Of a DNA stretch of 64,000 nt, positions 56,401 to 63,243 are shown piece after piece (within the stretch, counting starts at the first letter, position 1; each line of letters starts with the position of its first letter). The notes beneath the pieces are model-generated. The model was given only the letters and a program-made list of their open reading frames with translations, made no database searches and was not told where the DNA came from. The translations under genes and the position numbers were made by a program. This DNA comes from Gekko japonicus. Lineage: Eukaryota. The DNA lies in the NCBI RefSeq assembly GCF_001447785.1, contig NW_015169226.1, forward strand, positions 248,001 to 312,000, given 5' to 3'.

Positions 56401-59400
56401 ATGGAAAGAAAGGGAAAGGGGGAAAGAAGGAAAAGAAATGGAAAGAAAAGGAGAGAAAGAAAGGGGAAAAGAAAGATATGGAAAGAGAGGAAAAGAGAAA
56501 GAAATGGAAAGAAAGGGAAAGGGGGAAAGAAGGAAAAGAAATGGAAAGAAAAGGAGAGAAAGAAAGGGGAAAAGAAAGATATGGAAAGAGAGGAAAAGAG
56601 AAAGAAATGCAATTGCAGAAAGCTGGCTTGGAGAAGGCATGCACTTAAAAGTACTGTTGCTCTAAGTGCCTGCCTTCTCCGAGCCATACAATTGGAGAAA
56701 GCAGGCTTGGAGAAGGCAGGTCACTTAGAGGGAAAGTTCTGCCTTCTCCAAACCCACTCCTTGGCCCCCTGCACTGAGATGAAAATCTGTGTGCTGGGGG
56801 TCAGAAATTAGCACAATTTAGGGGGAACCCTGCTCACCACCCATCTGCAATACCCACCTAGCTTACAGGTATTATCGAGACTGTGTATGTGAATCACTCA
56901 GAACAGTCAACAGCACTGCATTAAGAGTTATCATTAACTCTCTGATTTAGATTTGTCAGTTATGATAGCTTGTTTTACACATTTTGCTTGGCACCCCAGT
57001 CTGTTTTCTCTCATCATCATCCTGACTCATAACTCTTAGGCTGTACTATACATGTCAGTCAGGTCTGCCATGTATATACCAGTGTCGCTCACAGCAAAGT
57101 ATGACCACTATTCACATATCCTTAAACACCCAAGAACATGAGTCCAAGAGTCATACTGCAACTCCACAACACATATATACCTTGCCTGTCTGTCTGCTGT
57201 GGGTACACTGGTGTATCTGTAACAAATGTGTAAGAAGTATTTCTTAATTCCGATGACCAGCAACTACCAAAGCCACTACTGTATACTCAAACTTGATTGG
57301 GAAATCCTCTACGTGAAATTTCCCCATCAAATGCAATATCAATAGAGATGAATTCAAAGAGAGGACAGTAGTTATGCAAGATCTTGAAAGAATCAGAAAA
57401 CCAAGCCGTTTAAGCTGTTAATAAAGTGACATTTAAAAACACCATTTGCAAGCATCTTAAGGAAATATTTATACTGGTTCTACTAAGCAACAGAATTATG
57501 AAAAAAACATATTAGCAGTTAATTTTCCTAATATTTAAATAAGGGAAGGAAAGATGAAACTTTGGCTTACTAGGAATCTACATCACTGATACACAGCATC
57601 CTAGGAAAGAGCCCTATAGGATCTTTCCTAAGCTTAAGGGCAAGGAACTCTAGGAGATCACTAAGAATATTTTTATGGGATCCCTAAGAATATTTTTCTA
57701 ACACTAACATCTCACGATAACCAGCTAGCTAAACAATTCTTTTTCCTGGTGGAAAGGTTTCTAGTTAAAGAGGAAGGAAATATTCCAAAGGTGGTTCCAA
57801 CAAAAGTAATCCAGATCTTATGTAAAGAGATGCTTCCACACTGGCATTCTTCTCTTCAAAGAAGTGAAGTCAGTTCTGCACGTTTTACAATAGCCAATAA
57901 GGGGGGGGGGGGAAACAACACCACAGAGCACAATCAGAGTGAATTTTTATATCCCACAGAGGGATTACTGATTGCCTTTTACTGAAACAAATGTGAAAGG
58001 ACTATTGTCATTTTTCTAGTTACGCTGTGCATGACAAAAGGTGCTGTCTCTACAGAATTCATGCCATTATTCACCGCGGGTAACACTGTTTTGTTTCAGT
58101 TACCGTGTCATTCCAGAACTCAGGTCCCAGAGTTCCTGTGAGAAGGTGAGTTATTACAATACAGAGTTCAGACTCTGTAACATCAAATCTATGCATGAGG
58201 AAAAGAAACATTTAAAATCATTGTACTAAGAGATCTTTAGCTTAACAGTTCCATGGAACAGATTTTCACTGACAATTAATAATACATATTTGAAATAAAA
58301 TAGACAGCTCTTTTAAAATGTTACAAATAGTTATTACAGAGGCCAATACATGGCCTGAAAAGCAGTAATGACTACAATCCACATCCAATTGAAGTCAGTG
58401 GTAAACCTCCCAATGTGTTCATTAGTCTTGGATTATACTCCTGAAAAGGAGTTTGAACATATTCCAAAAACAATAATAAAACAAACGTCATACAAATCAA
58501 AATAAAAGGTTTACATCTTCAACTCTAACTTAAATTTAAAGCAAATCCTATACATCTTCTACAGCAGCAGTTCTGAAATAGTTTACATACGCCACTAAAA
58601 ACACACATCAACACATGCAAGCCATAAATTATGCTAAATGAGTGAAACAATAATTTTAAATTCTATGTAAAGTATGTTATATACTTTATATATATATCAT
58701 TATAATTGGCTGTAATGAACTAGCAGCATAGAAAGGTCTGAGCCATGCAATTACATCAAACCAATGTCCAGGATATCCTTCAGGCTCTGCAGTGTTCTCT
58801 GACCTTGAACTTTATGGGTTGGCTTCTATGATCCAGAAACAGAATAAGTTTGTGGAACAGATCTCTCCCTCTTCCCTCTGTAACCCCCACCTGCTCCCAA
58901 AGCAGTCCGAGGGGGGCAGAGGACTCTTGGGAACAGAGTAGGATGTGGCATGGAGGCTGCAGCAAAAAGGACTCACCACTCCACAAACAGAAGAGTTAAT
59001 GCAAGAAGAGGTGTTTCTGATTTCCGCTGACTTCCTGTCTAGCTGCAGCCCTACATGCTATGTTATACTCTAAGCCCCAGGATCCCTGATCCACAGGAAC
59101 TTCTTTTCAGGAGGAAGGAAACAAGGGGAGAGACCTTTTCCATTAACTCATTCTGTTCATGGTTCACAGGCTCCAATCCAATATTTTTGACTGCAATATT
59201 TTAATTGCGTTATTTTAGTACTTCATCATCAGCCAAGACCACAAATATGCAACTATATGGCTTGAACATGTGCATAACTTTGCTTAAGAATCATCCCTGA
59301 TGAGAGAAACTATGGGAAGGAAGTTTTATCAACAAGATTAAGAATTTATTGTGCTCTGTTTTACCTATTTGTAGGACAAACCGTAAATTGACCCGATGAA

Positions 59401-62400
59401 GCTCTCGTTATCTACATTCAGATCAGGTTTAATACAAACAATACTGGGCCATAGTCATTCTCCAGACTTTTGGTGCTTCCACTCTCTAGCAGCTCTCCTA
59501 ATGCAGTGTGTGAGCATCTTTCATTCTTCTTTTTGAACTCATTTATAACCCAGACTATTTTCTGCTTTACAATTTCCATATGCTATTTAAGTCAGTCGTA
59601 CTTTGTTTTGAACCATGTTGACATTCAGTCTAAATTTCAAAAACAGCTATTTTCAACTTCACAATTAATGGTTTGTCCTTTTGAAAAAATCACTCCTCAC
59701 AGCAGCCAACTAGCATTACTACTTTGGAAAGTTGTAAGCATCAGAAGGCTGTGAGCTCTCATCATATTACATTAGCTCAGGTTTCAGGACAGGCACTAAC
59801 TAATCAAGTGTTCACCCTATCCCTGGCCCAGAGCTCAGTAAGCACACTAAGGTCCATGCGTGAGGGCCAAAGACCACTGCACAGCACAAGGACATTTATC
59901 TTGAGCCAAATTAGATAAACTCTAGGAAGTAGAAAGCTCGGAGACAGAAGACGAATCAGGCCTGTGTGCACTTACCTGGAAGCAAGCCCAACTGAATTAA
60001 TCTACGTAGCTAATTCTGAACCTGGCCCCAGAGTGTAGATCAAAAATCTACACAATGAGGCCAATTGTAGAAACGGGAGATACTTCTACAAATCTGGAGG
60101 TAGCCCCAGGTTTGTAGAAAAACCTTAAGTTGACAAAAGAGGAGGCGATAGAACTGTGAATGCATACTCACATACTTGACTCTTAGCTGGTTTACTTACA
60201 TTCCAAAGCGCAACGTTCCAGAGACATATGTCTGCCAATGTGCACAGTAAAACATAAACGTCCCAGCAAAACAGCAAAAGAACATCCAGTCAGGATTTGT
60301 CCCCAGCTGCACAGCAATACACGTTCCCAAGACCACAAAAACTGCAGAGAAAATCAGTTACAATGAGCAAAGACTACAGGTTTTAGAACAAAAGCCTTGA
60401 GAAATAAATGTTGACATTAGTTCATCAATATGCTACTCAATATCCAGTGATATTAAATGGATTCTCTTACTTACTGCATGGTAAGTTTTTTTAAGCATAG
60501 CATTGGTATGTCAAAATTCCAAGATCAATGAATGTTCTAAGAAATAAATAAAATGTACAAGCTGGAAACAAACATCGCATACAAACCAAATTAACCAGGA
60601 GGGCAGGTGTGTTCTCAGTTCCATCAGAGTATATTTTTAAAAAACAAATGAATATTACTAGTAATACCACAATAGTATTACTAATAGTAATAATATTACG
60701 AATGAGCAACCTGATCATTTCCCTCAACATAAGTTCGCAACAGGCTATCAACAGGTGATTATTTATACAGAGCAACAAATGTGACCATCTCCTTAGGACT
60801 AATCCTGAACAAACTCCAGTGACTTGTTGATTCTGCAAGTATACCAAGGGAATGGGGAAACAAAGCTGCAAGGGGGAAAACTTACTTTCTATAGAAATCA
60901 ACAGACTTTAGAAAACAGTTTCTATAGCTGAGTTTAACAGAAATTAATGTAAGTCCAAAATGTGGAAATATTATTTGTATTATTATGCTATAGATTTCAA
61001 TATTCCTTGTTTGAAAATAAAATTTAAAATGAATCAATAGAGTGCTGAAATTGAATACAAATAGCTTCTCATCTAAACAGTTTTATTAAAAGAAAGTATT
61101 TTGAATACACACACCCTTCATGGATTTTAAGAAAGCAATCCTGAAACAGCAGGACACTGCTCATTGGGAGTGCACTTAGCCATGCATCCTTTTAAAGGCT
61201 GCAGGAATGTTCATGTCAATAAACTTTCTGTTCTATTATTCAAAGCCTACCCAGGCACGGAGTAGCCTAATCACAACATACTCTAATAGGGTTGGTTGGT
61301 TCAAGCACAGAGAATCTGAGTTACAGTTCTTTATTGTAAATGCAATGTGCTGTCTGTGCAACTGGAAGCTTGTTTCAGTTCTTTCAAAGTATTACTGAAG
61401 TGAAACAAAACTTACAAAGCTAGCACAGCCAGATATAAAAAGTATATTAAAAGGATTCTGTCTAAGCTTTAGCCAGTTGCCCTGCAGAAAAAAATCAGGG
61501 ATTGCACAACTCTTTTGTTTCCAATATTTGGGAACTTCCCTGAGCCATAGTACATAAGCTAACAACCACACAAGAATGGAAATACAGCAAATACAGTTGT
61601 GTGAACAAATAACCAGAATAATCTGTCACGCTGTACAAATCACATGCAAGACTTCCATCTTCTTTTACAGTCCTACTTACAAACGATACACATAAAGATG
61701 CATAAATGACACCTACACCAGTTGAATAGTGACCTTATAGTCCTTGAAAGTACAAGTCTCTCTTTAGAATGATGCAGTCACTGGCTCATGATGCAGAGAA
61801 GACTTTCAAACAGAATAGCCATAGCGCAAACCGAAGGAGTGGCAACGGCATGCCTAGGTTGCTTCACCATTTCTTAGGGCTTCATCAGGCGTCTTTTCTT
61901 AGAAATGGAGCCCACCCAGCTCTGATAAGATTCAAAATGACACAAAGTCTACAAGTATATTCCAGATAGCTCTGGAATTTGGAATATACTTGTAGACTTT
62001 GTGTCATTTTGGATCTTACCAGAGCTGGGTGGGCTCCATCCCTAAGAAAAGCAGCCTGATGAAGCCCTAAGAAACAGTGAAGCAACCAAGGCATGCCGTT
62101 GCCACTCCTTTAGTTTGCGCTACGGCTACTCTTGAGCCCATGCTGTCCACATGCTGTCTTCTCTGCATCATGAACCGGTGACTGCATCATTCTAAAGAGA
62201 GACTTGTACTTTCAAAGACTTTCAGGTGTAGATGTCATTTATGCACGGTGGCAAAACCATTTGTTATGTGTATCACTTATGGTTGTAAGTAGAACTGTAT
62301 AATAAGAAGACAGTAGTCTCAAGTGTGATTTGTATAGCATAACAGATTATTCTGGTTATTTGTTAGCACAATAGTATATAAGATAGCTCAGGATGTACAC

Positions 62401-63243
62401 AGTTCGTTAAAACTTTACAACCAGCATTTGGGAGCCTTTACTCATTTAATTCTGATCTCTAGGATTTGCATAAGAAACAGGAAAAGGTTCAAAAAGGCAG
62501 TTATGAGATACTTTTCAATGATGAAAGTGAAAACTAAAAAAACCTGTTTCAGTTCAGCTCTACTGGGGAGCGTTGCCTATTTAAACAGCAAAATAGATAT
62601 ATTTTAAATATTTTAAGTGATGACATGATTTAACAATGAAAACCTTTGCAGAGTTACTCATGTCTAAGACCACTTATTTTGATGGGTTTACACAGTGTTT
62701 TAAGATTGCACTGCACATTACTGCACATTAAGTTAGCTAACCCAATTTAGATATGTGTTAAGCACACAACCCATATCTCTAAAATGTGGCAACAATATAA
62801 TCTCTATTCCAGATGGGAAGCCAAGTTAATCTGCAGCAGCAAAATAAAACAGAAGTGCACTCATACCTTAAGGACTAACAAAACTTATTTCAGCATAAGC
62901 TTTGGTGAATCACGAAAACTTATGATATAATACATTTGGTTAGCCTTTAAGGTGGCATGGGACTCCAATATAATCACAGCACATTATTCGCTTTGCAACA
63001 GGATCCAATAATTTTTCGGTTTTCTAGTTTTGTATTCTACATACCCTCCAGAGTGTAAATAATTTAATAGACAAATGTCTTTTAGCAGTAAATACCTGTG
63101 GACAGTGAGTCACAGCCATGGTCAAAAAGTTCTCCCAAAGGGCTACTAGTATTTGTTCTTCTTGCTTGCTTTCCATCTATGGCATCCAAAGACTGGTATA
63201 TGAAAAGACCACAAGCACATGCAATATATGCCCAAGCAGGTGC
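40776..63243 (-). CDS. CEPT1: Choline/ethanolamine phosphotransferase 1, multi-exon, 5'-partial; complement(join(40776..40895,42811..42936,43278..43436,44362..44493,48228..48312,60200..60341,63096..63243))
   Basis: Seven exons total 912 nt (303 aa plus stop) in frame. They include the CDP-alcohol phosphotransferase motif [26 protein letters not shown] and a C-terminus ...[19 protein letters not shown] typical of CEPT1. Confidence 0.96.
42811..42936 (-). CDS. CEPT1: CEPT1 coding exon ([42 protein letters not shown])
   Basis: Acceptor ttcctacag, donor gtaagt. Confidence 0.96.
43278..43436 (-). CDS. CEPT1: CEPT1 coding exon ([53 protein letters not shown])
   Basis: Acceptor ttctttgcatag, donor gtaagt. 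Confidence 0.96.
44362..44493 (-). CDS. CEPT1: CEPT1 coding exon ([44 protein letters not shown])
   Basis: Acceptor cctcctgttaag, donor gtgagt; [11 protein letters not shown] motif. Confidence 0.95.
46320..46632. mobile_element. GC-rich non-autonomous hAT element
   Basis: Ends caggg...cccctg; 8-bp TSD tgcacagt (46312-46319, 46633-46640). Confidence 0.85.
47414..47450. repeat. (TAAA)n microsatellite
   Basis: Direct reading. Confidence 0.9.
48228..48312 (-). CDS. CEPT1: CEPT1 coding exon ([28 protein letters not shown])
   Basis: Acceptor cctaatcag, donor gtaaat. Confidence 0.95.
49785..50072 (-). mobile_element. tRNA/MIR-derived SINE (Squam3-like)
   Basis: Highly similar to 10187-10470. Confidence 0.8.
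50213..51884. mobile_element. 1.67-kb composite non-autonomous hAT element
   Basis: TIR caggggtcgtttca / tgaaatgacccctg; 8-bp TSD gaccatag (50205-50212, 51885-51892). Confidence 0.8.
52312..52752. mobile_element. hAT (Charlie-like) non-autonomous element
   Basis: caggggtcccca...tggggaccctg; 8-bp TSD gtataagc (52304-52311, 52753-52760). Confidence 0.85.
54383..54592. mobile_element. Fold-back element, probably Penelope pLTR-derived
   Basis: Arms agcaccttaaaggctaacaaaattt / aaattttgttagcctttaaggtgct. Confidence 0.6.
56385..56608. repeat. Polypurine tract with a 103-bp unit duplicated
   Basis: The same atggaaagaaagggaaagggggaaag... unit starts at 56401 and 56504. Confidence 0.85.
60200..60341 (-). 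CDS. CEPT1: CEPT1 coding exon ([47 protein letters not shown])
   Basis: Acceptor tttctctgcag, donor gtaagt; [14 protein letters not shown] motif. Confidence 0.96.
61597..62371. repeat. ~775-bp palindrome (arms ~370-390 bp, 15-nt loop) in a CEPT1 intron
   Basis: Left arm 61597-61964 is the reverse complement of 61980-62371, with scattered substitutions and indels. Confidence 0.93.
63096..63243 (-). CDS. CEPT1: CEPT1 catalytic-motif exon ([49 protein letters not shown])
   Basis: Acceptor atttctctcag, donor gtattt; DGxxARx8GxxxDxxxD motif. Confidence 0.97.

What the first reader, a model, noticed from the sequence alone, without database searches (positions are those of the whole stretch)
61597..62371. 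Large intronic palindrome whose arms each carry a hammerhead-ribozyme-like core
Seen: two ~370-390 bp arms fold back around a 15-nt loop (61965-61979). The right arm reads CTGATGA(62056-62062)-agccctaagaaacagt-GAAG-caac-caaggcatgcc-gttg-CC. The left arm has the same layout on the minus strand (the CEPT1 sense strand): CTGATGA-a-gcc-ctaagaaat-ggt-GAAG-caac-ctaggcatgcc-gttg-CC. This resembles CUGANGA / stem II / GAAA / stem III / NUH, with a palindrome (GGCATGCC) in loop III. Both arms have GAAG...GCC in place of GAAA...GUC, a paired A-U to G-C swap at a normally invariant position. Known: Penelope-like elements carry minimal hammerheads in their pLTRs and often leave inverted pLTRs. Inference: this is a non-coding, head-to-head pLTR element. 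It would form long dsRNA in CEPT1 pre-mRNA and may represent a variant or dead ribozyme family. I could not identify a convincing stem I.
Basis: partly seen in the sequence, partly recalled or inferred. Interest (0 to 1): 0.7.

Follow-up and report, generated by a model that had tools for sequence, protein, structure and literature searches.

The report
Head-to-head Penelope stub, helix-II-less hammerhead
The palindrome is two back-to-back, intron-free copies of the front end of a Penelope-type jumping gene sitting in a host intron; the self-cutting-RNA motif in each arm was misread at first and is predicted to be dead here, but the family version keeps a normal core in an unusual build with no second stem.

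Summary
The palindrome is real (61562-62370, 15-nt target duplication, both junctions present in an independent DNA run). It is one insertion of a dispersed Penelope-like (Neptune-type) retrotransposon: 23 of 77 sampled loci are head-to-head, none tail-to-tail. Both arms are spliced: a 76-nt GT-AG intron kept by copies attached to the RT/GIY-YIG frame is missing. The true core uses the GAAA nine bases upstream (73 of 76 copies), with a 6-bp helix I, 5-bp helix III and a GUC site; a sister family covaries in that register only. Both window copies are damaged and locked in an 810-nt hairpin, so are predicted inactive. What remains unusual is the family ribozyme: no helix II, a stable helix III, and a loop-III self-complementary hexamer that covaries across sister families. 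None of 56 published animal Penelope hammerheads has this build, and Rfam does not detect it. Cleavage is untested; copy ends do not cluster at the cleavage site. The scan found this insertion type before in other genomes, and a long helix III elsewhere in this genome.

The parts
61547..61561 (+). left copy of target-site duplication (15 nt, 13 of 15 identical to the right copy)
   Evidence: sequence; TSD search gave a 14-nt match with 2 mismatches
61562..61971 (-). left arm: spliced pseudo-LTR copy, family positions 15-477, with tail
   Evidence: 89% identical to the family majority
61562..61600 (-). about 40-nt optional tail, present on the left arm only
   Evidence: 3' ends cluster at family positions 432-447 and 473-477
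61838..61894 (-). left-arm hammerhead (sense to the host gene): C3 at 61888, GAAA 61873-61870, site GUU after 61844; helix I broken
61910..61911 (-). exon-exon junction of the removed 76-nt intron, left arm
61972..61976 (.). head-to-head junction, 5 nt between the 5' ends of the two arms
   Evidence: gap 5
61977..62370 (+). right arm: spliced pseudo-LTR copy, family positions 19 to about 440, tail-less
   Evidence: 91% identical to the family majority
62033..62034 (+). exon-exon junction of the removed 76-nt intron, right arm
62050..62106 (+). right-arm hammerhead: helix I 62050-62055/62101-62106, CTGATGA 62056-62062, unpaired linker 62063-62070, GAAA 62071-62074, helix III 62075-62079/62094-62098, site GUU after 62100; helices I and III and the loop palindrome damaged
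62371..62385 (+). right copy of target-site duplication
60342..63095 (-). host intron (CEPT1-like gene) that contains the insertion
   Evidence: flanking exon translations and splice dinucleotides; gene name recalled

Best explanation
This is an old insertion of a Penelope-like (likely Neptune-clade) retrotransposon made of two spliced copies of the element's front end joined head to head, likely built at one staggered DNA cut, and its two hammerhead motifs are predicted to be inactive. Shown: family membership, loss of the intron, attachment of unspliced copies to an RT/zinc-linker/GIY-YIG frame, target duplication, one tailed and one tail-less end. Inferred (about 0.6): the element's protein cuts both strands about 14 nt apart and starts reverse transcription internally at two sites about 40 nt apart on uncleaved, spliced RNA from one source element; both cDNAs run to the RNA 5' end and are joined there. 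Predicted: the family ribozyme is a type I hammerhead with canonical core, 6-bp helix I, 5-bp helix III, a palindromic loop III and no helix II, likely a slow cutter that needs a partner RNA or the element's protein.
For: 602 candidate copies, 40 scored. 23 of 77 non-redundant loci head-to-head, 0 tail-to-tail; 8 of 8 such loci with both outer ends intact have one tail. Intron GT-AG in 15 of 17 parsed copies, 76 nt in 11; 9 of 26 not parsed. 15 of 21 unspliced but 1 of 48 spliced loci carry sequence upstream of the start; 33 of 48 spliced copies begin within the first 8 nt. Upstream frames encode RT thumb, Cys-rich linker and GIY-YIG-like end; an intact 753-aa relative, 46% identical over the 100-aa end, hits RVT_1 (E 4.5e-8) and GIY-YIG weakly (E 0.13). 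GAAA in 73 of 76 copies (47 of 50 outside the motif-selected set), N17 = C in 48 and T in 26 of 76. Sister family changes two helix III pairs and keeps pairing. Arms of one locus share rare variants (5 each in L032 and L039). Two adjacent internal start sites and uncleaved template shown in vitro for a lizard Penelope (PMC11167929).
Against: No full-length copy of this exact family was found; the longest reaches the RT core only, and its three short frames gave no Pfam hit. No tree with reference Neptune sequences was built. The two-site model rests on 8 loci and an experiment on a different clade. Shared variants between arms could come from later gene conversion. The first 30 loci were picked for full-length likeness, which inflates complete 5' ends. 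In an intact copy the hammerhead fold is not the lowest-energy fold (-13.1 against -19.4 kcal/mol; helix III probability about 0.15).
Confidence: 0.9

Rival explanations
1. One reading: a hammerhead family with a compensated G15.1-C16.1 swap (GAAG...GCC).
For: Both window arms can be drawn that way, and the letters after CUGAUGA resemble the bulged-A plus G-C opening of known Penelope hammerheads.
Against: AAAG in 64 of 76 copies, GAAG in 7; fold energy -2.9 against -13.1 kcal/mol and stem II probability 0.0 in an intact copy; helix I only 3 bp; no equivalent in the sister family.
Confidence: 0.03
2. A non-autonomous DNA transposon (MITE or fold-back element) with long terminal inverted repeats.
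For: Long inverted arms and a target duplication.
Against: Arms lack a spliceosomal intron that other copies keep; most loci are single-armed, partner arms are variably 5'-truncated; unspliced copies join an RT/GIY-YIG frame.
Confidence: 0.01
3. Same element, but the inverted arm arises by self-priming fold-back or template switching of one cDNA, or from an antisense template, instead of priming from both cut strands.
For: Arms share subfamily and rare variants; self-priming on an antisense template was proposed in PMC3846280.
Against: Both arms are spliced in the sense direction, which an antisense template would not give; partner arms often begin hundreds of bases inside the element.
Confidence: 0.25
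4. The family motif is a catalytically dead hammerhead relic kept only as a structural signal (RNA dimerisation or protein binding), or not kept at all.
For: No helix II; U4 or C3 changed in 5 of 16 representatives; only 1 alignment start falls in family positions 140-149 and no partner arm starts at the site; no read-end pile-up at the site of a young relative, at depth about 11.
Against: Core, site and both helices are intact in the family majority and covary between families; the lizard PAc ribozyme also leaves no such ends yet cleaves with protein (PMC11167929); engineered helix-II-less minizymes cleave (PMC544870).
Confidence: 0.4
5. The hairpin has been co-opted by the host gene (splicing control, editing substrate, small RNA source).
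For: About 810-nt hairpin 725 nt from a splice donor.
Against: Arms have drifted with several 12-30 nt deletions and 5-7% non-CpG change, the same as other copies (median 7.3%). RNA reads laid here were few and mostly from other copies, so editing was not testable.
Confidence: 0.05

Closest known systems
EN+ Penelope-like insertions with inverted pLTR, one tail and TSD (Pen2a_Av, PMC3846280; scheme in PMC8557442)
   Same: Inverted 5'-truncated copy, 30-40 nt tail at one end only, target duplication, intron of about 75 nt in the pLTR.
   Different: Here both halves are ORF-less and spliced; TSD about 14 nt rather than 8-10; insertions prefer sites in one host repeat.
PAc / Poseidon of Anolis carolinensis (PMC11167929)
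   Same: Two adjacent 3' ends matching two internal start sites; no copy ends at the ribozyme site.
   Different: PAc is Poseidon clade with a helix-II hammerhead overlapping the start codon and AT-rich targets; this family has a Cys-rich linker and a longer leader.
Minimal hammerheads of animal PLEs (PMC4209133, Fig. S3 list of 56)
   Same: Type I, in the pLTR just 3' of the intron, extra A after A9, palindrome in the helix III region.
   Different: All 56 listed have helix II of 3 bp or more and almost no helix III; here helix III is 4-6 bp with a 13-17 nt loop and helix II is 0-4 bp, absent in this family.
Fungal and protist PLE hammerheads with large helix III (PMC4209133)
   Same: Long stable helix III, no evident loop I-II contact.
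   Different: Those keep helix II and cleave as monomers; they belong to endonuclease-less telomeric elements.
Engineered minizymes and miniribozymes (PMC544870); natural 1-2 bp stem II and GAAA-insertion variants (PMC3088659)
   Same: Helix II replaced by a linker or one G-C pair, as in this family and its sisters.
   Different: Minizymes are artificial; the natural short-stem cases read were prokaryotic or phage and keep at least one pair.

Membership tests
EN+ Penelope-like element | RT plus C-terminal GIY-YIG frame upstream of the pLTR | tested here: met
   Broken frames in L065-L070, L103; intact relative hits RVT_1, weak GIY-YIG; homologues carry PF00078, PF26215, some PF01541
EN+ Penelope-like element | inverted 5'-truncated copy with tail at one end | tested here: met
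   23 of 77 loci; 8 of 8 with one tail
EN+ Penelope-like element | spliceosomal intron in the pLTR, retained in ORF-linked copies | tested here: met
   intron of a young relative spliced in RNA reads
EN+ Penelope-like element | target-site duplication | tested here: met
   14-16 nt in 6 of 8 intact head-to-head loci; clear in 5 of 17 single copies
Neptune clade | CX2-5CxxC zinc-finger linker between RT and endonuclease | tested here: met
   seen in translations; feature shared with Nematis per PMC8557442
Neptune clade | RT phylogeny with reference Neptune elements | not tested
   no reference set at hand
Hammerhead ribozyme type I | core CUGANGA, GAAA, A15.1-U16.1, NUH | tested here: met
   window copies keep all core letters with a GUU site
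Hammerhead ribozyme type I | helices I and III | tested here: met
   family majority and sister-family covariation; broken in both window copies
Hammerhead ribozyme type I | helix II closed by G10.1-C11.1 | tested here: not met
   8-nt unpaired linker in this family; 1-4 bp in several sister families
Hammerhead ribozyme type I | self-cleavage | not testable with these tools
   indirect read and copy-end evidence uninformative or negative
Rfam hammerhead families | covariance-model match | tested here: not met
   no hammerhead hit at E<=10 in the window stretch or E<=5 in 9 loci with better-kept motifs
Animal PLE min-HHR (Cervera and de la Pena 2014) | long helix II with 0-2 bp palindromic helix III | tested here: not met
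   compared with the 56 listed motifs
TIR DNA transposon | fixed two-ended unit without RNA step | tested here: not met
   intron loss and variable truncation

The most novel reading that the evidence does not exclude
Neptune-type retrotransposons of this lizard-like genome carry a natural minizyme lineage: hammerheads that have shrunk helix II from 4 bp to nothing while keeping the catalytic core, a stable helix III and a covarying self-complementary loop-III hexamer, which acts as a kissing-loop dimerisation signal, so that cleavage happens only in an RNA dimer or on the element's own protein.
Probability: 0.3. Interest if true: 0.6.

Novelty: new variant of a known kind. Interest (0 to 1): 0.33.

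Why it matters
The locus itself is ordinary transposon debris. The family adds three things. (1) A hammerhead build that helix-II-based descriptors and Rfam miss, so ribozymes of vertebrate Neptune-type elements may be undercounted; the function of Penelope hammerheads is an open question and these families offer a graded series (4, 2, 1, 0 bp of helix II) to test, including a young intact family. (2) A clean split between spliced copies starting at the transcription start and unspliced copies attached to the ORF, with one tail per inverted insertion, which gives genomic support for internal two-site priming and a simple reason why full-length copies keep their intron. (3) A target preference for sites in one host repeat.

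Tried and rejected
Rfam scans gave only miRNA-type hairpin and chance hits. Pfam found nothing in three short frames of L070. Search for a full-length copy of this family found only 5'-truncated ones. Sequencing runs: no RNA holder listed. RNA reads on the window: 60, 2 and 8 reads, mostly other copies; A-to-I editing could not be judged. RNA reads on a young relative showed splicing but no ends at the cleavage site; libraries look unstranded, mostly older copies and low depth, so no verdict. A universal pairing between the linker and loop III was considered: it forms the lowest-energy fold in this family but is not consistent across sister families. Complementarity of loop III to the DNA target was considered and dropped as unsupported. 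One search misparsed helix III in two representatives; redone. No motif was found in about 20 of 36 pLTR clusters. Lunse et al. 2017 (PMC5785218) is not held; I saw it only as cited in reviews, and it and Repbase entries could already hold this build. Paper searches for a prior description found none.

Full report
Observation. The inverted repeat is real: inner arms 61812-61967 and 61977-62132 are 91% complementary, with outer blocks of 81-95%, 79% overall with indels. The host-strand RNA folds into one hairpin of -552.3 kcal/mol, z -51.6 against 20 shuffles. It lies in an intron of about 2.75 kb between two minus-strand exons whose translations carry motifs I recall from CEPT1 (the gene name comes from no database call). 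Contigs of an independent DNA run cross the left and right junctions with no differences, so it is no assembly fold-back.

The family. One arm finds 602 candidates in the 2.49-Gb genome G000, 40 scored, about 80% identical. With two more searches I held 84 loci and dropped 7 that duplicate others. Of 77 loci, 23 have two copies head to head and none tail to tail. 3' ends fall in two clusters, family positions 432-447 and 473-477. All 8 head-to-head loci with both outer ends intact have one end of each kind, the window included (left arm tailed, right arm not); chance would give this in 1 of 256 if each end chose freely. Six of those 8 show a 14-16 nt target duplication; the window's is 61547-61561 and 62371-62385. 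The first 30 loci were chosen for full-length likeness and 28 by a ribozyme motif, so proportions are not genome-wide estimates.

Link to a Penelope-like element. Some copies hold an extra GT-AG segment 22 nt upstream of the ribozyme core. A search with it gave 26 places; 17 could be parsed, 15 GT-AG, 11 of 76 nt. These copies run upstream, in a ladder of 5' truncations, into a frame with RT thumb, Cys-rich linker and GIY-YIG-like end. The split is sharp: 15 of 21 unspliced loci but 1 of 48 spliced loci carry sequence upstream of the common start, and 33 of 48 spliced copies begin within its first 8 nt. Both window arms are spliced. The endonuclease end finds 150 scored relatives in G000, among them a young family with identical 753-aa frames in partial tandems, which hits RVT_1 (E 4.5e-8) and GIY-YIG weakly; its closest named relatives are from lizards, then amphibians and fish, and its first pLTR intron is spliced in RNA reads of three runs and in DNA contigs. 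The Cys linker marks Neptune or Nematis (PMC8557442, passages); I built no tree. Inverted pLTR, single tail and TSD are the described insertion form (PMC3846280, passages; PMC8557442).

The ribozyme register. In this register helix I has 6 and helix III 5 Watson-Crick pairs around a canonical core. In the window, CpG decay breaks helix I in both arms and helix III and the loop palindrome in the right arm (pair probabilities 0.07 or less), and the full transcript would bury both in the long hairpin. They are predicted dead.

What is unusual. Between A9 and G12 this family has 8 unpaired bases and no helix II. I fetched pLTRs behind 90 endonuclease hits (36 clusters) plus 8 longer regions and parsed 16 representatives; about 20 clusters gave none. 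Helix III pairs 15.2-15.5 hold in 15, 16, 16 and 16 of 16 with four or five pair types per position, and helix I in 13-16 of 16; the descriptor required pairing, so these counts are partly by construction, though the pair exchanges are not. Helix II ranges from 3-4 bp through 1-2 bp to none. A self-complementary hexamer sits near the 3' side of loop III in 10 of 16 against 3.35 expected from shuffled loops; one of the 10 passes through a non-homologous hexamer, and the families are related, so the nominal P of 2e-4 overstates it. The hexamer takes six forms (CCUAGG, CCUGGG, CCCGGG, UCUGGA, UCCGGA, CUCGAG), changing at all three pair positions. Of the 6 misses, one is a mutated copy of a family whose majority has it (17 of 23) and one has it further from the stem. 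C3 or U4 is altered in 5 of 16. The 56 animal PLE hammerheads listed in the supplement of PMC4209133 (main text parts 1-2 and supplement parts 1-2 of 3 read) all have helix II of 3 bp or more and little helix III; large helix III is described there for fungal and protist elements. Natural stems II of 1-2 bp are known (PMC3088659, passages), engineered minizymes without helix II cleave, in general less well (PMC544870, passages), and PMC8557442 mentions Naiad cores that fit no stem descriptor. Rfam detects no hammerhead here. Lunse et al. 2017 was not available and may bear on novelty, as may supplements of PMC8557442 that I did not open. Other papers: PMC6765202, PMC10085705, PMC6466107 and bioRxiv 10.64898/2026.07.22.740005 were seen as passages only.

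Mechanism. Shown: splicing state, ends, duplication, ORF link. Inferred: transcription starts in the pLTR, the intron is removed, and the protein primes inside the RNA at two sites about 40 nt apart, from the two strands of a 14-nt staggered cut; the cDNAs are joined at the RNA 5' end. In vitro, a lizard Poseidon protein cuts and extends both strands, starts at two internal sites that match the tail, uses uncleaved RNA, and its hammerhead cleaves only with protein (PMC11167929, parts 1-2 of 4 read). In agreement, only one alignment start lies in family positions 140-149 and no partner arm starts at the site. Arms of one locus share rare variants and exceed the median identity to other copies in 9 of 10 pairs, which fits one source element but also later conversion. 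Whether the family ribozyme cuts is open (about 0.5); the conserved palindrome suggests RNA dimerisation, as known for PLE hammerheads with short helix III.

Earlier notes of this scan describe the same insertion type in other genomes, the spliced fold-back idea, and a long helix III elsewhere in this genome; I had reached my reading before the first look-up. A look-up by sequence found nothing.

Verdict. An ordinary, decayed Penelope-type inverted stub; the proposed core swap is not real; the family ribozyme is a new variant of a known kind with untested activity. Interest 0.33.

Noticed in passing
3' flanks of family copies, e.g. L003, L010, L019, L020, L039, L055: 45 of 80 3' ends abut one abundant host repeat at a few fixed sites, in both orientations; among the other 35, 21 have an [AG]GC[ACT] motif 15-19 nt from the end against 13% background, as does the window on both sides of its TSD (patterns chosen after viewing). 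Suggests a two-half-site target for a dimeric endonuclease.
   Followed up: partly
family positions 268-302; L010, L015, L017, L018, L020, L041, L050, L056: The 5' ends of inverted partner arms cluster here in about 9 of 23 head-to-head loci; cause unknown (pause site, microhomology or a second RNA end).
   Followed up: no
L169 2030-5700, L170 (G000:C2384, C16303, also C10631, C11799, C14069): Young, apparently intact Neptune-type family in partial tandems 3655 bp apart: 753-aa RT/GIY-YIG frame, an upstream short ORF, two pLTR introns, and a hammerhead with a single G-C pair for helix II and GUAAA in place of GAAA.
   Followed up: partly
L115, L118 versus L117, L120: The sister family has two linker lengths that differ by a 5-nt duplication of the GAAA box.
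   Followed up: no
L100 5425-5861 (minus strand as oriented): An RT fragment is joined directly to the 3' part of the pLTR, an internal deletion or template jump.
   Followed up: no
window 58368-58442 and 62851-62967: Two further imperfect hairpins picked up as sub-threshold miRNA-model hits.
   Followed up: no
window about 58184 and 48308, minus strand: Two similar exon-like stretches with the same DVTE motif in the host gene, possibly a duplicated or alternative exon.
   Followed up: no
L060 and L061: Identical loci with identical flanks on two contigs, likely an assembly or segmental duplicate.
   Followed up: no
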